64,000 nucleotides of DNA from an uncultured bacterium (GCA_905215525.1 CAJMQJ010000002.1:85227-149226), one strand, 5' to 3'. Counted from the first letter of the stretch, positions 3,965 to 36,233 are shown. Made by a program: numbers and translations. Notes: generated by a model from the letters alone, not told the origin.

Positions 3965-6613
3965 CTAGCAGACGGCGTAGTCCTGAGGCTCGCGGCCGTA
4001 GTAGGCGTCCAGGTAGAGCTCCTTGATCTCGCTCATGAGCGGGTAGCGCGGGTTTGCGCCGGTGCACTGGTCGTTGAATGCCTGCTCGGTCATCTCGTCG
4101 AGGGTGTCGAGGAAGTACTGCTCGTCAACACCGTAGTCGGCGATGGTCTTCTTGACGCCGATGAAGTCCTTGAGCTCCTCGAGCTTCGTGATGAAGTTCT
4201 CGAAGACCTCCTTGTCGTCCTTGCCCTCGATGCCGCAGTACTTGGCCATCTCGGCGTAGTTGTGCAGCGCGTTGGGGTAAGGATACTGGGAGAAGGTACC
4301 CATCTTGACGGGAGCCTCGGCGGCGTTGTAGCGCATAACGCGGGTCAGGATGACGGCGTTGGCGAGGCCGTGGGGCAGGTGATGGAAGGCGCCGAGCTTG
4401 TGAGCCATGGAGTGGTTGAGGCCCAGGAAGGCGTTGGCGAAGGCCATACCGGCCATGCAAGAGGCGTTGTGCATCTCCTCGCGGGCATGCGGGTCCTTGG
4501 CGCCGTTCGTGAAGCTGGAGGGCAGGTTCTCGAAGACGAGCTTAGCAGCGCGCTCGGAGAGGCCCTTGGTGTAGTCGGAAGCCATGATGGAGACGTAGGA
4601 CTCGATGGCGTGGGTCATGACGTCGATGCCGGAGGCAGCGGTCAGGCCGCGCGGGGCGGTCATGCAGTTGTCGGCGTCGACGATAGCCATGTTGGGGAGC
4701 AGCGCGTAGTCGGCGAGCGGCCACTTGATGCCGGTCTCCTTGTCGGTGATGATGGCGAACGGCGTGCACTCGGAGCCGGTACCCGAAGAGGTCGGGACGG
4801 CGACGAAGTAGGCCTTCTTGCCCATCTCGGGGAAAGTGAAGATACGCTTGCGGATGTCCATGAAGTCCATGGCCATGTCCTCAAACTTGCACTCGGGGTG
4901 CTCGTACATCATCCACATGATCTTGCCGGCGTCCATAGCGGAGCCACCGCCGACGGCGATGATCACGTCAGGCTCAAAGAGAGCCATCTGCTTGGCGCCG
5001 CGACGTGCGCACTGCAGCGACGGATCGGGCTCGACGTCGTAGAAGCAGTCGTGGGCGATGCCCATCTCGTCGAGCTTGGCCTCGATGGCGCGGGTGTTGC
5101 CATTCTTGAAGAGGAACTGGTCGGTGACGATGAAGGCGCGCTTCTTGCCCATGACGGTACCGAGCTCGTCGAGGGCGACGGGCGTGGAACCCTTCTTGAA
5201 GTAGACCTTCTCGGGAGCGCGGAACCACAGCATGTTCTCACGGCGCTCGGCCACAGTCTTAACGTTGATCAAGTGCTTCACCCCAACGTTCTCGGAGACG
5301 GAGTTGCCGCCCCAGGAGCCGCAGCCCAGGGTCAGAGACGGCTTCATGCCAAAGTTGTACAGATCACCGATGCCGCCGTGCGAGGACGGGGTGTTGATGA
5401 CGATACGGCAGGCCTTCATGACGTGCTCGAACAGACTGATCTTCTCGGCCTGGGCGGGGTGCACGTACAGAGAGGCGGTGTGGCCCGGGCCACCGGCGAG
5501 CACCAGGTGCTCGGCCTTGTCGACGGCCTCCTGGAAGTCCTTGGCGTGATACATGGCCAGGACCGGGGAGAGCTTCTCGTGGGAGAACTCTTCCTTGGCG
5601 GGGTCGGTGGAGGTGACCTCGGCGATCAGGATCTTGGTCTTGGCGGGAACCTCGATGCCGGCGAGCTCGGCGATCTTGGCGGCAGCCATGCCGGGAATGC
5701 GGTGATCGAGGGCGCCGTTCTTGAACATGGCGGCACGCAGGGCCTCCATCTCGGCACCCTGCTTGACGAAATAGCAGCCGCGCTTCTGGAACTCGGCCTT
5801 AACCTGGTCATAGATGGTGTCGATGACGGTCACGGACTGCTCGGAAGCGCAGATCATGCCGTTGTCGAAGGTCTTGGAGTGGATGATGGAGTTGACGGCG
5901 AGCAGCACGTCGGCGGTGTCGTCGATGACGACCGGGGTGTTACCGGCGCCAACGCCCAGGGCGGGCTTGCCCGAGGAGTAGGCGGCCTTGACCATGCCCG
6001 GGCCACCGGTGGCGAGGATGATGTCGACGTCGCGCATGACCATGTTGGTCAGCTCGATGGAGGGGACATCGACCCAGCCGATGATACCCTCGGGGGCGCC
6101 GGCCTTGACGGCGGCGTCAAGCACGAGCTTGGCGGCGGCGATGGTGCACTTGGCGGCAGCCGGGTGCGGGGAGATGATGATGGCGTTGCGGGTCTTCAGG
6201 CTGATCAGTGTCTTGAAGATCGCAGTGGAGGTGGGGTTGGTCGTCGGGATGACGGCGCCCACGATACCGATGGGCTCGGCGATCTTGGTGATGCCATAAG
6301 CCTCGTCGCGCTCCAGGACACCACAGGTCTTGGTGTTCTTGTAAGCGTTGTAGATGTACTCTGCGGCGTAGTGGTTCTTGATGACCTTGTCCTCAAGAAC
6401 GCCGCGGCCGGTCTCCTCGATGGCCATCTTCGCCAACGGGATACGAGCCTTGTTGGCGGCCATGGCGGCCTCATAGAAGATCTTGTCGACCTGCTCCTGC
6501 GTGTACGTAGCAAAAAGCGCCTGGGCCTCTCGCATCTGAGCGAGCTTAGCCTCAAGCGCCTCTACGTTGTCCACAATTGCGGGAGTAGTGTTTTCCGGTG
6601 ACTTTTTCACCAT
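3965..6613 (-). CDS. adhE: Bifunctional acetaldehyde-CoA/alcohol dehydrogenase AdhE
   Basis: 882 aa. N-terminal ALDH domain and C-terminal Fe-ADH domain. High-confidence family match by sequence character (e.g. GGGSAMDAGK, HxxxH iron-site motifs). Confidence 0.95.
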   Translation of the reverse strand: MVKKSPENTTPAIVDNVEALEAKLAQMREAQALFATYTQEQVDKIFYEAAMAANKARIPLAKMAIEETGRGVLEDKVIKNHYAAEYIYNAYKNTKTCGVLERDEAYGITKIAEPIGIVGAVIPTTNPTSTAIFKTLISLKTRNAIIISPHPAAAKCTIAAAKLVLDAAVKAGAPEGIIGWVDVPSIELTNMVMRDVDIILATGGPGMVKAAYSSGKPALGVGAGNTPVVIDDTADVLLAVNSIIHSKTFDNGMICASEQSVTVIDTIYDQVKAEFQKRGCYFVKQGAEMEALRAAMFKNGALDHRIPGMAAAKIAELAGIEVPAKTKILIAEVTSTDPAKEEFSHEKLSPVLAMYHAKDFQEAVDKAEHLVLAGGPGHTASLYVHPAQAEKISLFEHVMKACRIVINTPSSHGGIGDLYNFGMKPSLTLGCGSWGGNSVSENVGVKHLINVKTVAERRENMLWFRAPEKVYFKKGSTPVALDELGTVMGKKRAFIVTDQFLFKNGNTRAIEAKLDEMGIAHDCFYDVEPDPSLQCARRGAKQMALFEPDVIIAVGGGSAMDAGKIMWMMYEHPECKFEDMAMDFMDIRKRIFTFPEMGKKAYFVAVPTSSGTGSECTPFAIITDKETGIKWPLADYALLPNMAIVDADNCMTAPRGLTAASGIDVMTHAIESYVSIMASDYTKGLSERAAKLVFENLPSSFTNGAKDPHAREEMHNASCMAGMAFANAFLGLNHSMAHKLGAFHHLPHGLANAVILTRVMRYNAAEAPVKMGTFSQYPYPNALHNYAEMAKYCGIEGKDDKEVFENFITKLEELKDFIGVKKTIADYGVDEQYFLDTLDEMTEQAFNDQCTGANPRYPLMSEIKELYLDAYYGREPQDYAVC

Positions 6614-6705
6614 TTGTGTCTCCTTGCGATCGGAGATTTACCCTACGTCTTGCATGATAGCAAGAAATAATTCGGTAAACGGTAAGATTCCCGTAAAAGG
6701 CATAC

Positions 6706-6737
6706 TAAAACGTTTCAACCAACTGAAACGTTTCAAC
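6706..6737. promoter_or_regulatory. Two tandem palindromic operator-like sites (TAAAACGTTTCAAC and CTGAAACGTTTCAA) in the adhE upstream region
   Basis: The direct repeat AAACGTTTCAAC occurs twice, 18 bp apart, and each copy contains a GAAACGTTTC palindrome with a central CG as in LacI-family operators. Located 95-125 bp upstream of the adhE start. Confidence 0.3.
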
Positions 6738-6767
6738 TATAACTATCTGCCTATTGCATTGCCCCGC

Positions 6768-7805
6768 TCATTGGGGACAGACTTACATGAGTGCTTTCAC
6801 TCATTTGTGACAGACATGGATTTGTCATTTTGCCGTTCTGGGCCTGTTTTTGGCGCAGATTGGATATAAATAGGTCACAGGCTCAGCATTTCGCGTTCCT
6901 TCTCTCCTTTTAGGTGTTGCCTGTACGGCTTTGAAAGGAGAGACCATGCCCCGATGCGCCCGCGAAATATCGCTCACCGGCTATTACCACGTCTTTGACC
7001 GCGGCAACTCCAAACAGATCATTTTTGAAGATGATTCCGACCGCTATCGTTTCTTATCGGACATCTCAGACAGGTTTGCGTGCCATGACGTGGCGGTGTT
7101 GGCCTGGTGCCTTATGGATAATCACTTCCATTTGATGGTTGATGACCCATATGACAACCTTTCAAAGGCAATGCAGTGCGCGCTGACGGCCTATGCCAAG
7201 TATTTCAATGGAAAAACGGGAAGAACGGGTCACCTGTTTGATAATCGCTATTCGCGGATCGCGGTCGAGTCGGACACGCAGGCGGTGCAGTTGCTCGATT
7301 ATATCCATCTCAATCCTGTGAAAGGTGTGCTCGACTCGCTCGATGCCTACCGCTGGTCAAGCTACAAGGCATACCAGCTGGGATACGATCCCTTTGATAT
7401 CTGTGACGCGGCTCCTATGCTCGATATTGTCGGAGGCTCTCGTTGCTATTGCGAGCATCTCGAGGAAGTTGCCGGGCGCATCTGGTCAGTGGAGATTCTT
7501 CCGCGCCGACGGATCCCCGATGAGGACGCCCTTTCCGTTGCGCGCGAAGTTTTGCCGAGCATGGATCCTGCGCTGCTCAAGGCCCTGCCACGCTCCGAAC
7601 GTGATGCCTGTCTGCTGAGGCTCAGGCGGGCACATCTCACGGTCAAGCAAATTGCCCGTATCACCGGTATCGGCGCTACAAGCGTGACCAAGGCCACTGT
7701 AGGCTGGAAGGAGGCAGCGTGAGGTAGGGGCCGAACCGCAGTCGGCATGCATTACGTCTGTCCCCAATGCGTGAAAACACTCATGTAAGTCTGTCCCCAA
7801 TGAGT
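6768..7805 (+). mobile_element. HuH-Y1 transposase gene (RAYT/IS200-like) flanked by inverted REP-like repeats, a 'REPtron'-like unit
   Basis: Left repeat 6768-6815 and right repeat 7756-7805 are reverse complements, with about 27 bp identical and about 88% identity over about 50 bp. Each contains two copies of the GTCTGTCCCCAATG/CATTGGGGACAGAC core. They flank the transposase ORF 6946-7722. Confidence 0.65.
6946..7722 (+). CDS. REP-associated tyrosine transposase / IS200-IS605-family Y1 (HuH) transposase with C-terminal HTH
   Basis: HuH motif DNHFHLMV and catalytic Y motif DYIHLNPVKG. The C-terminal helix-turn-helix LTVKQIARITGIGATSVTKA is longer than in canonical TnpA. The ORF track begins at TTG 6931; the likely ATG is at 6946 after AAAGGAGAG. 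Confidence 0.8.
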   Translation: MPRCAREISLTGYYHVFDRGNSKQIIFEDDSDRYRFLSDISDRFACHDVAVLAWCLMDNHFHLMVDDPYDNLSKAMQCALTAYAKYFNGKTGRTGHLFDNRYSRIAVESDTQAVQLLDYIHLNPVKGVLDSLDAYRWSSYKAYQLGYDPFDICDAAPMLDIVGGSRCYCEHLEEVAGRIWSVEILPRRRIPDEDALSVAREVLPSMDPALLKALPRSERDACLLRLRRAHLTVKQIARITGIGATSVTKATVGWKEAA

Positions 7806-7908
7806 GCAAAAAGGCGCCCTCCGTGGGGGAGGACGCCTTTGGTAAGTTCTATGTGAACGCGAGGTCTTTGACCCGGAGAGTCCGAGGTACTTGTTGGTAA
7901 GACCTTAT

Positions 7909-8536: not shown

Positions 8537-10065
<1,529 letters not shown>

Positions 10066-10082
<17 letters not shown>

Positions 10083-35618: not shown

Positions 35619-35647
35619 GGGCGACTCCGGACAGGGGTCGCCCTTTT
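35619..35647 (+). terminator. Rho-independent terminator of pnp
   Basis: GGGCGAC-loop-GTCGCCC followed by TTTT. The T-run merges into the left arm of the palindromic element. Confidence 0.7.
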
Positions 35648-35784
35648 GCTTGCGCCCGGGAGGGTCGCATATGAAGTTTCCTGCTCTACAGTCCTGCGCA
35701 AGACGGAAAGCACATTAAGTGCTTTCCTTTGCGTGCGGAACTCGCGATAAACTTCATATGCGGCCCTCCCGGGCGCAAGCAAAA
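35644..35784. repeat. Palindromic element copy 1 (family P1): 36 bp near-perfect inverted arms flanking a 69 bp core that carries an internal hairpin
   Basis: Left arm TTTTGCTTGCGCCCGGGAGGGTCGCATATGAAGTTT (35644-35679). Right arm (35749-35784) is its reverse complement with one mismatch. Inner hairpin GGAAAGCAC-ATTA-GTGCTTTCC. Confidence 0.8.
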
Positions 35785-35917
35785 GGACTGGTTAGTGCCG
35801 CTCGCTATTTAGTTAGACAGTCTATTCAGTAGTCAGATTTCAGATCTGTAGATAGCCGCAGCAGCATCTTCCCAGATAAAATCGACCAAAATAAACCTGT
35901 CCCTTTTTGGCAGGTTT

Positions 35918-36040
35918 CCCGTGGGGCGGGCACTGATGAAGTTTATCGCGAGTTCCGCACGAACAGGAGGCCACTTAATGTGGCCTCCGTCGTGAGCAGG
36001 ACTGTAGAGCAGGAAACTTCATCAGTGCCCGCCCCACGGG
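35918..36040. repeat. Palindromic element copy 2 (family P1, inverted orientation, diverged arms)
   Basis: 27 bp perfect inverted arms CCCGTGGGGCGGGCACTGATGAAGTTT / AAACTTCATCAGTGCCCGCCCCACGGG. The core is the reverse complement of the copy-1 core with compensatory substitutions in the inner hairpin (GGAGGCCAC-TTAA-GTGGCCTCC). Confidence 0.8.
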
Positions 36041-36233
36041 AAACCGGCGGGATAGACCGGTTTGGATGGGGCTTTGATGCATGGGTGGTCTGTTGGTGGG
36101 CAAATGGGTATCATACTGTGGTTATTGCATCGACTCTGCGATGCATGTTTGTACGTTCCCGGCGGTCGGTTTGCCAGAAGCGCCCCGTCGGTTGTTCCAG
36201 ACCCGTTTCGAAGAAAGGAAACCACACTAACCT

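What the first reader, a model, noticed from the sequence alone, without database searches (positions are those of the whole stretch)
6768..7805. HuH-Y1 transposase (RAYT/IS200-like, with extra C-terminal HTH) flanked by about 50 bp inverted REP-like repeats, next to the adhE promoter
The ORF carries the HuH (HFH) and catalytic-Tyr (YIHLNPVKG) motifs of IS200/RAYT enzymes, but at 259 aa it is larger than canonical TnpA and ends in a predicted helix-turn-helix. It is bracketed by inverted repeats (6768-6815 and 7756-7805). Each repeat contains two copies of the imperfect palindrome CATTGGGGACAGAC/GTCTGTCCCCAATG, which is the REP-RAYT-REP 'REPtron' arrangement. The element abuts the adhE upstream region (the adhE start is about 150 bp from the left repeat), so it could influence adhE expression. 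An Actinobacteria-like REPtron with an HTH-extended RAYT is not something I recognise as well described.
Basis: partly seen in the sequence, partly recalled or inferred. Interest (0 to 1): 0.55.

Follow-up and report, generated by a model that had tools for sequence, protein, structure and literature searches.

The report
Collinsella TIRtron: RAYT-like gene with hairpin repeats
A single-copy, RAYT-like tyrosine (HUH-Y1) enzyme gene sits between adhE and rpmB of a gut Collinsella, bracketed by inverted arrays of a small hairpin repeat that also occurs at a modest number of other places in Collinsella genomes; this kind of element ("TIRtron/TIRYT") has been described before, so it is a new member of a known but little-studied class.

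Summary
The ORF at 6946-7722 (258 aa) has the HUH motif and the catalytic Tyr. It is flanked by 49-nt inverted repeats, 6767-6815 and 7756-7804, that are 92% complementary.

The protein passes Pfam Y1_Tnp. By profile and by predicted fold it is closest to E. coli TnpA_REP (4ER8). It carries a conserved C-terminal HTH.

Each inverted repeat is two copies of a hairpin unit: a 7-bp stem (CACTCAT/ATGAGTG) around a 15-nt loop (TGGGGACAGACTTAC here, ...TTAA in dispersed copies). The same unit occurs in many Collinsella genomes as singlets, tandem arrays and inverted, REPIN-like doublets. These fall into about 9 major and 7 minor mostly orthologous extragenic positions.

The gene is single-copy and always lies next to rpmB. 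It is under purifying selection (dN/dS 0.1), and the repeats are as conserved as codon positions 1 and 2.

The element matches the published TIRtron/TIRYT class (GGGGWSAS motif; TnpA_REP subclass 2.1 with HTH). It is therefore a new member of a known kind.

One additional finding may be new. The same adhE-rpmB slot holds at least five very different cassettes (39-69% protein identity), each with its own hairpin stems, in near-identical genomic backgrounds.

There is no evidence that the element affects adhE.

The parts
6767..6815 (.). Left terminal inverted repeat, made of two tandem hairpin units. The outer unit is 6767-6791(93): CTCAT|TGGGGACAGACTTAC|ATGAG(TG). The inner unit starts at 6798 and is degenerate (CACTCAT|TTGTGACAGAC...).
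   Evidence: Mean pairwise difference among 20 orthologous loci is 0.042, against 0.18 at codon position 3 and 0.20 just outside the repeat.
6816..6945 (+). Internal leader of the cassette, with an AGGAG Shine-Dalgarno at 6936-6940. A TATAAAT-like box near 6866-6872 is read by eye only.
   Evidence: Moderately conserved, pairwise difference 0.087. No promoter was called here by the consensus scan.
6946..7722 (+). TIRYT / RAYT-like HUH-Y1 gene, 258 aa. The catalytic domain spans about residues 1-150 (H60, H62, Y119, W137-S138-S139). Residues 156-183 form a linker helix. Residues about 190-250 form the C-terminal helix-turn-helix.
   Evidence: Pfam Y1_Tnp 29.4 bits against a cut-off of 23. NCBIfam REP_Tyr_transpos 52.5 bits, below its cut-off of 80. 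A family profile hits 4ER8 at E=7.5e-5. AF2 model pLDDT 88; Foldseek best hit 4ER8, E=3.9e-6. dN/dS 0.105.
7746..7806 (.). Right terminal inverted repeat, made of two hairpin units on the opposite strand. Inner unit 7746-7773: CATGCAT|TACGTCTGTCCCCA|ATGCGTG. Outer unit 7778-7806: CACTCAT|GTAAGTCTGTCCCCA|ATGAGTG. The arm matched by the repeat finder is 7756-7804.
   Evidence: Pairwise difference 0.035, against 0.38 in the 33-nt spacer between the stop codon and the repeat.
7810..7840 (-). rpmB intrinsic-terminator-like hairpin (AAAGGCGCCCTCC...GGAGGACGCCTTT) that abuts the outer right unit. It is not part of the element but marks its constant right-hand boundary.
   Evidence: Inverted repeat I7. 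The same junction is seen with all five cassette types.

Best explanation
This is a TIRtron: a chromosomally fixed, single-copy gene for a RAYT-like HUH-Y1 enzyme (TIRYT, TnpA_REP subclass 2.1, with a C-terminal HTH), bracketed by inverted arrays of its cognate DNA hairpin unit.

The unit is a 7-bp stem enclosing a ~15-nt loop that begins with the family-wide GGGG(A/T)C motif. Copies of the same unit lie at a modest number of other extragenic sites in Collinsella genomes, as singlets, tandem arrays and inverted doublets that fold into long hairpins (REPIN-like).

Inferred mechanism, by analogy with E. coli TnpA_REP and IS200/IS605 TnpA:
- The enzyme binds the folded unit on single-stranded DNA, for example at replication forks.
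- It cleaves and rejoins next to the unit using Tyr119 and the H60/H62-bound metal ion.
- In this way it creates, rearranges and occasionally moves units in trans, while the gene itself stays put.
- The HTH probably adds double-strand DNA binding, either for repeat recognition or for autoregulation.

Shown here: the anatomy, single-copy synteny, purifying selection on gene and repeats, dispersal of the units, and co-variation of enzyme with hairpin.
Inferred only: cleavage, mobilisation, and the role of the HTH.
For: Identity of the protein:
- It scores above the Pfam gathering cut-off for Y1_Tnp.
- It is closer to RAYT than to IS200. NCBIfam REP_Tyr_transpos is the only transposase family hit. 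The family profile hits 4ER8 at E=7.5e-5 against ISDra2 at 0.1. Foldseek gives 4ER8 at E=3.9e-6 and TM 0.69, ahead of ISDra2 and IS608.
- The C-terminal HTH is conserved in all 27 homologues. It has weak matches to HTH_7 and HTH_23 and to ArsR-type HTHs.

Fixed and single-copy:
- The exact protein is indexed in 1024 collection blocks. All 23 contigs read show adhE-Y1-rpmB-pyrR-pyrB-pyrC.
- All 20 Collinsella tiles with the gene also carry rpmB.
- There is no paralogue in the window.

Selection:
- dN/dS is 0.105 overall, 0.066 in the catalytic part and 0.17 in the C-terminal part.
- TIR pairwise difference is 0.035-0.042, against 0.18 at third codon positions and 0.20-0.38 in adjacent spacers.

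Dispersal:
- These held 146 site clusters, including 36 inverted doublets with modal spacings of 40, 49, 64 and 70 nt.
- The clusters fall into 16 flank-defined positions besides the gene locus, and almost all are extragenic.

Cognate pairs:
- Homologues at 39-69% identity are each flanked by inverted arrays with different stems: TGGTGCA/TGCACCA, TGAAGAT/ATCTTCA, TAGTCAT/ATGACTA, CATGCCAC/GTGGCATG and TAGAA/TTCTA.
- All of them keep the GGGGAC or GGGGTC loop.

Literature:
- The GGGGWSAS TIRs of TIRYTs are described in PMC3733652, and the HTH-bearing subclass 2.1 in PMC6006769.
- In vitro cleavage and strand transfer by TnpA_REP on folded single-stranded REPs is shown in PMC3333891 and PMC8266576.
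Against: - No activity has been shown for any TIRYT; only two papers in the library mention the class.
- Most dispersed sites are orthologous across the roughly 105 sampled Collinsella assemblies, with few lineage-specific ones. Evidence for recent mobility is therefore thin.
- Copy number is low, and there are no units elsewhere in this 64-kb window.
- The single-unit hairpin is only marginally stable, -4.8 to -8 kcal/mol. In the left arm the minimum-energy fold prefers an inter-unit hairpin.
- One distant homologue (L158) has GGGGTC repeats without a clear stem.
- The gene is degraded in a fair share of strains, so it is dispensable.
Confidence: 0.7

Rival explanations
1. Domesticated DNA-binding or nuclease protein with a host function. 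On this view the hairpin units are fixed cis-elements (for example regulatory, structural or terminator-like sites) that the protein binds through its HTH and Y1 domain. No mobilisation takes place today.
For: - Dispersed sites are mostly orthologous across many species-level clusters.
- Copy number is low.
- Purifying selection acts on the protein, including the HTH, and on the repeats.
- One doublet lies between the divergent metK and gltX promoter regions.
Against: - The gene is lost or broken in many strains: the 245-bp remnant in six loci, a frameshift in L155.
- Unit number varies at orthologous positions, from singlet to doublet to triplet.
- Several unit families coexist and cluster together as BIME-like arrays.
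- All catalytic residues are retained.
Confidence: 0.2
2. An ordinary autonomous insertion sequence (IS200/IS605-like, or another TIR-bearing IS) that recently landed upstream of adhE.
For: - The 1040-bp unit with terminal inverted repeats and one transposase-like ORF looks like an IS.
- Many homologues sit on contigs of about 1 kb.
Against: - The gene is always at one locus, in one copy, in every contig read.
- Orthologues at that locus differ by dS 0.25-0.40, so the insertion is old.
- The ~1-kb contigs begin and end inside the inverted repeats. They are assembly breaks, not extra copies.
- IS200/IS605 elements lack TIRs.
- The protein is closer to TnpA_REP than to IS transposases.
Confidence: 0.04
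3. The whole cassette (gene plus repeats) is itself site-specifically mobile. On this view it is exchanged between strains at the adhE-rpmB slot by the Y1 enzyme, rather than by ordinary homologous recombination or in-situ divergence.
For: - At least five unrelated cassette types occupy the same slot, with boundaries at the outermost units.
- A type C cassette sits in a background whose flanks are as close to the window as those of strains with an identical type A gene. Flanking-gene dS is 0.08-0.15 in both comparisons, and divergence does not rise next to the cassette.
Against: - No empty slot was found.
- Long-standing alleles whose flanks were homogenised by recombination would give the same picture.
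- The left boundary is not sharp; 3-27 nt there vary between types.
Confidence: 0.15

Closest known systems
TIRtron / TIRYT (Di Nocera et al. 2013, PMC3733652), which TnpA_REP subclass 2.1 (Quentin et al. 2018, PMC6006769) 'probably corresponds to' according to that paper
   Same: - A RAYT-like Y1 gene that is longer than canonical RAYTs.
- A C-terminal HTH-like domain of the HTH_23/HTH_28/DnaA_C type.
- Flanked by long terminal inverted repeats that carry GGGGWSAS (here GGGGACAG).
- The repeats also occur as moderately abundant singles, dimers and groups.
- Single copy.
   Different: - The host is a Coriobacteriia genus that is not mentioned in the main text of either paper.
- Here the TIR resolves into tandem hairpin units, with the GGGGWS motif in the loop and stems that co-vary with the enzyme.
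- Several very different cassettes share one chromosomal slot.
REPtron / REPIN-RAYT systems of Proteobacteria (E. coli TnpA_REP 4ER8; Pseudomonas RAYT groups 2 and 3; PMC3333891, PMC3116915, PMC5581495)
   Same: - A single-copy, vertically kept Y1 gene flanked by inverted cognate repeats.
- Dispersed extragenic copies, including inverted doublets that form long hairpins.
- Enzyme and repeat co-vary.
- The gene is lost in some strains.
   Different: - No GTAG or CGTC head.
- The unit is a short stem with a large conserved loop, not a long imperfect palindrome.
- Tens of copies rather than hundreds.
- The protein is about 90 residues longer, with an HTH.
- It scores below the NCBIfam RAYT equivalog cut-off.
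IS200/IS605 insertion sequences (IS608, ISDra2 TnpA)
   Same: The HUH-Y1 fold and catalytic residues; hairpin DNA at the element ends.
   Different: - IS200/IS605 elements have no terminal inverted repeats.
- They are multi-copy and mobile as whole elements.
- They often carry tnpB.
- Their TnpA is about 130-150 aa and has no HTH.

Membership tests
HUH-Y1 transposase superfamily (Pfam PF01797 Y1_Tnp) | Profile match above the curated threshold | tested here: met
   29.4 bits against a cut-off of 23, residues 13-121. All 27 aligned homologues match.
HUH-Y1 transposase superfamily (Pfam PF01797 Y1_Tnp) | HUH metal-binding motif and a single catalytic tyrosine | tested here: met
   H60-F-H62 and Y119 are invariant in alignment A1. 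Y119 aligns with the YI.INPVK tyrosine of 4ER8.
HUH-Y1 transposase superfamily (Pfam PF01797 Y1_Tnp) | Y1 transposase fold | tested here: met
   AF2 model with pLDDT 88. The first 20 Foldseek hits are TnpA_REP, ISDra2, IS608 and IS200 transposases.
RAYT / TnpA_REP | Closer to TnpA_REP than to IS200/IS605 TnpA | tested here: met
   Profile E=7.5e-5 to 4ER8 against 0.1 to ISDra2. Foldseek E=3.9e-6 against 8e-4. No IS200 family is hit in NCBIfam.
RAYT / TnpA_REP | NCBIfam REP_Tyr_transpos equivalog score | tested here: not met
   52.5 bits against a cut-off of 80. It is a relative of the canonical RAYT, not an equivalog.
RAYT / TnpA_REP | Single copy, conserved chromosomal position, flanked by inverted cognate repeats | tested here: met
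RAYT / TnpA_REP | Flanking repeat is a classical REP (20-40-nt imperfect palindrome with a GTAG or CGTC head) present in hundreds of copies | tested here: not met
   The unit has a 7-bp stem and a 15-nt loop with no GTAG or CGTC head. There are 16 flank-defined positions besides the gene locus in the genus sample, and none elsewhere in this window.
RAYT / TnpA_REP | Cleavage and strand transfer on folded single-stranded repeats | not testable with these tools
   This needs biochemistry. It has been shown only for E. coli, S. maltophilia and Marinomonas TnpA_REP (PMC3333891, PMC8266576).
TIRYT / TIRtron (TnpA_REP subclass 2.1) | RAYT-like gene flanked by long terminal inverted repeats | tested here: met
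   49-nt arms, 92% complementary, conserved in orthologues.
TIRYT / TIRtron (TnpA_REP subclass 2.1) | GGGGWSAS motif in the TIR | tested here: met
   GGGGACAG occurs in three of the four units. GGGGTCAG, GGGGACAC and GGGGACGG occur in the other cassettes. The motif definition is from PMC3733652.
TIRYT / TIRtron (TnpA_REP subclass 2.1) | Long protein with a C-terminal HTH-like domain (Bac_DnaA_C, HTH_23 or HTH_28) | tested here: met
   258 aa. Helices at 192-250 have pLDDT around 90. HTH_7 matches 13 of 27 members, HTH_23 10 of 27 and HTH_28 3 of 27; all are weak. An ArsR-type HTH is hit at E=0.004.
TIRYT / TIRtron (TnpA_REP subclass 2.1) | Phylogenetic placement among reference subclass 2.1 sequences | not tested
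IS200/IS605 insertion sequence | Multi-copy, variable location, subterminal hairpins without TIRs | tested here: not met
   One copy at one locus. TIRs are present. The short contigs are assembly breaks.

The most novel reading that the evidence does not exclude
The adhE-rpmB intergenic slot of Collinsella acts as a landing pad where complete enzyme-plus-hairpin cassettes of the TIRYT family replace one another in otherwise near-identical genomes. Strains of one population would then carry different, mutually incompatible enzyme/repeat pairs, each maintaining its own small population of dispersed hairpin units. Exchange would be carried out by the Y1 enzyme itself, targeted next to the rpmB terminator, rather than by ordinary homologous recombination.
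Probability: 0.15. Interest if true: 0.65.

Novelty: new member of a known kind. Interest (0 to 1): 0.38.

Why it matters
TIRYTs are a large branch of RAYT-like enzymes; subclass 2.1 is the second largest in PMC6006769. I found no experimental work on them.

Collinsella offers a compact natural test set:
- a single enzyme gene;
- a simple 29-nt hairpin unit with the family motif in its loop;
- only tens of genomic copies;
- several divergent enzyme/hairpin pairs sitting in the same chromosomal slot of closely related, very abundant human-gut strains.

This makes the recognition code (stem against GGGGWS loop, catalytic domain against HTH) and the question of whether such repeats still move directly testable.

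For annotation, the gene should not be called an IS200 transposase. The repeats also explain assembly breaks at this locus.

The element has no demonstrated bearing on adhE expression.

Tried and rejected
- Single-sequence search against PDB found nothing useful. A family profile was needed.
- Rfam has no family for the repeats, neither in the window nor in 13 tiles with dispersed copies. I had recalled a 'Collinsella-1' RNA motif from memory; no family of any name matched.
- A search for an empty adhE-rpmB slot in JGI metagenomes (TGAANCGTTTYAAC N5-35 AAAAGGCGCC) returned only 14 unrelated, mostly soil-type contigs without adhE, rpmB or the gene. It is uninformative.
- The rpmB look-up gave remnants but no clean empty site.
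- The idea that ~1-kb contigs of homologues mean multi-copy IS behaviour was rejected, because those contigs end inside the inverted repeats.
- The first flank clustering (60-nt matches) merged sites, because the flanks contain other repeats. It was redone with matches of at least 130 nt.
- The 'D2' unit pattern cross-hit type A units at 2 mismatches and was ignored.
- A per-genome count of units could not be obtained. The figure of 'order of 10-20 positions' rests on how the sample saturates. Separately, 11 of the 120 tiles hold a second, independent site.
- No other tile position overlaps the 64-kb window, so no filled-versus-empty comparison was possible there.
- The consensus promoter scan gave nothing usable for adhE or for the gene.

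Full report
**Observation.**
An ORF runs from the ATG at 6946 to the stop at 7720-7722 (258 aa), preceded by AGGAG. It contains NHFH (H60, H62) and YIHLNPVKG (Y119). The repeat finder reports arms 6767-6815 and 7756-7804: 49 nt, 92% complementary, 940 nt apart. The core 14-mer CATTGGGGACAGAC occurs with 2 or fewer mismatches only four times in the 64 kb, all inside these arms. adhE starts at 6613 on the minus strand, 153 nt from the left arm.

**Protein.**
- Pfam Y1_Tnp is matched above its gathering score, 29.4 against 23 bits.
- The only transposase family hit in NCBIfam is REP_Tyr_transpos, at 52.5 bits, below its equivalog cut-off of 80.
- A profile of 27 homologues (37-90% identity) finds E. 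coli TnpA_REP (4ER8) at E=7.5e-5 and ISDra2 TnpA only at E=0.1.
- An AlphaFold model (pLDDT 88) is closest to 4ER8 (E=3.9e-6, TM 0.69 on the target), followed by the ISDra2, IS608 and IS200 transposases.
- All 27 homologues share a C-terminal helical domain with invariant R219, Q235, G241 and G243.
- Members of this domain give weak matches to HTH_7 (13 of 27), HTH_23 (10 of 27) and HTH_28 (3 of 27). A profile of the domain weakly hits ArsR-type winged HTH proteins, best E=0.004.

**A fixed, single-copy, selected gene.**
- The exact protein is indexed in 1024 blocks of the assembly collection. All 23 contigs read carry it between adhE and rpmB-pyrR-pyrB-pyrC. A 90%-identical orthologue has the same neighbours.
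- In a scan of one genome per species, all 20 tiles with the gene also carry rpmB.
- The record titles identify the host as Collinsella, a gut Coriobacteriia genus.
- The window has no paralogue.
- Among 20 orthologues dN/dS is 0.105: 0.066 for residues 1-150 and 0.17 for residues 151-258.
- The two repeats differ between loci by 0.042 and 0.035 per site, like codon positions 1+2 (0.033). Third codon positions differ by 0.18, the 26 nt outside the left repeat by 0.20, and the spacer between the stop codon and the right repeat by 0.38.

**Anatomy of the repeats.**
- Each arm is two tandem copies, 33 nt apart, of a unit whose consensus from 250 copies is CACTCAT|TGGGGACAGACTTAA|ATGAGTG: a 7-bp stem and a 15-nt loop.
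- As single-stranded DNA the unit folds as drawn, but weakly (-4.8 kcal/mol). In the left arm an inter-unit hairpin is preferred.

**Dispersed copies.**
Nearly all are Collinsella.
- These hold 146 site clusters. Thirty-six are inverted doublets with preferred spacings of 40, 49, 64 and 70 nt. The rest are singlets and tandem arrays. A doublet folds into a perfect long hairpin (-37.9 kcal/mol, z = -16).
- Clustering by 200-nt flanks gives the gene locus plus eight positions seen in 7-22 tiles each and eight seen in 1-3 tiles.
- So the family is low-copy, on the order of 10-20 positions, and mostly orthologous among these closely related genomes (about 95% nucleotide identity to the window).
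- Almost no site lies inside a long ORF. In C. aerofaciens ATCC 25986 one doublet lies between the divergent metK and gltX genes.
- Units of two other types (C-like and D-like) are also dispersed, often next to type A units.

**Cognate pairs.**
Divergent homologues are flanked in the same way, but by different units:

| Homologue / locus | Stem | Loop |
|---|---|---|
| P0071, locus L142 | TGGTGCA/TGCACCA | TTGGGGTCAGGTTACTT |
| P0050, locus L135 | TGAAGAT/ATCTTCA | GGGGACGTAGATGC |
| P0068, locus L138 | TAGTCAT(T)/(A)ATGACTA | GGGGACGTTCATA |
| P0106, an Atopobiaceae MAG, locus L161 | CATGCCAC/GTGGCATG | GGGGACGGAGGCA |
| P0013, locus L178 | TAGAA/TTCTA | contains GGGGACAGAC |

- The chance of a perfect 7-bp stem at the offsets searched is about 0.004 per unit, so five independent stem sequences around one conserved loop motif amount to covariation.
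- One homologue (P0091, locus L158) has GGGGTC repeats without a clear stem.

**Several cassettes in one slot.**
- P0013 (67% identity), P0044 (55%), P0050 (54%) and P0071 (39-45%) all lie next to rpmB. Where the contig is long enough, they lie between adhE and rpmB.
- The cassettes end at the outermost unit, directly against the rpmB terminator. On the other side they end 3-27 nt after a conserved AAACGTTTCAAC.
- The strain with the type C cassette differs from the window in flanking genes by dS of 0.079 (adhE), 0.154 (pyrR), 0.145 (pyrB) and 0.136 (APH-like kinase). This matches strains that carry an identical type A protein (adhE 0.086, pyrR 0.12, pyrB 0.13).
- Divergence in 250-nt bins does not rise towards the cassette.
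- The cassette was therefore either replaced, or it is an old allele whose flanks have been homogenised. I cannot tell which.

**Decay.**
- Six loci keep only a 245-bp remnant: one outer unit, codons 85-156, and the other outer unit.
- One locus has a split ORF. Another has an rve-type IS inside the left repeat.
- Contigs of about 1 kb that carry homologues start and end inside the repeats. They are assembly breaks.

**Comparison with what is known.**
- Di Nocera et al. (PMC3733652) named RAYT-like genes flanked by long TIRs 'TIRYT' and 'TIRtron'. They noted the shared GGGGWSAS motif and found some TIR families moderately abundant as singles, dimers or groups.
- Quentin et al. (PMC6006769) defined TnpA_REP subclass 2.1 as long proteins with a C-terminal HTH (Bac_DnaA_C, HTH_23 or HTH_28). 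They equated it provisionally with TIRYT and found no typical REPs next to those genes.
- The window element meets each of these features. It fails two RAYT features: the equivalog score and a classical REP.
- Only these two papers in the library use the terms. Neither mentions Coriobacteriia in its main text.
- The element is therefore a new member of a known kind.
- Two points may go beyond the literature: the description of the TIR as hairpin units with the motif in the loop, and the coexistence of several cassettes in one slot.

**adhE.**
The 153 nt next to adhE include two copies of a TGAAACGTTTCA palindrome. They are the same with type A, B or C cassettes and with the remnant. Nothing here suggests that the element affects adhE.

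**Mechanism.**
- Shown: the anatomy, fixation at one locus, selection, dispersal of the units, and co-variation of enzyme with hairpin.
- Inferred from E. coli TnpA_REP and IS200/IS605 (PMC3333891, PMC8266576): binding of the folded unit on single-stranded DNA; Tyr119/HUH cleavage and rejoining next to it; formation and occasional movement of units in trans.
- The role of the HTH is unknown.

**Limits.**
- No empty slot was found.
- No reference TIRYT sequences were available for a phylogeny.

Noticed in passing
window 35642-35786 and 35910-36048: Two elements of about 140 nt, each with 35-38-nt terminal inverted repeats (97% complementary) and 81% complementary to each other over 113 nt. Pieces of 72-91 nt recur in seven unrelated Collinsella tiles. 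This looks like a second, unrelated MITE-like repeat family. It contains no tRNA.
   Followed up: partly
window 6704-6737: Two adjacent copies of ACTRAAACGTTTCAAC, each containing the perfect palindrome TGAAACGTTTCA, lie about 90-125 nt upstream of adhE. They are conserved whichever cassette is present. They are a candidate operator for adhE regulation. The terminator scan also flags the pair as a hairpin on the minus strand.
   Followed up: no
L156 about 4369-5625 (GCA_025993015.1): An IS encoding an rve/HTH_21 transposase is inserted inside the left repeat, between its two units. This fits the known tendency of IS elements to target REP-like hairpins.
   Followed up: no
L148, L149, L151 (3190-3705); L026, L081, L086: A 245-bp miniature derivative occupies the same slot. 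It consists of one outer unit, about 200 nt of the ORF (codons 85-156, now with stop codons), and the other outer unit. It is shared by several strains, so it probably arose once.
   Followed up: partly
L138 4001-4771; L158 3001-3753; L161 3001-3753: Paralogous or related TIRYT genes sit in other fixed slots, each with its own inverted repeats: MatE|CobO-FtsH, RsfS|DinB, and DeoR|LUD in an Atopobiaceae MAG. Type D units are dispersed in the Collinsella tiles, so one genome may hold more than one system.
   Followed up: partly
window 6946-7719 compared with 3965-6613 and 8549-10082: Synonymous divergence of the Y1 gene among type A strains (dS 0.25-0.40) is several times that of the adjacent adhE (0.04-0.09) and of pyrR/pyrB (0.07-0.16) in the same genome pairs. 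Either the cassette alleles are older than their flanks, or codon-usage constraint is weaker on the Y1 gene.
   Followed up: no
L116 (CAVKNR010000305.1, labelled Sodaliphilus sp.): This contig, assigned to a Bacteroidales MAG, carries two Collinsella-type units and flanks that cluster with Collinsella tiles. It is probably a mis-binned contig.
   Followed up: no
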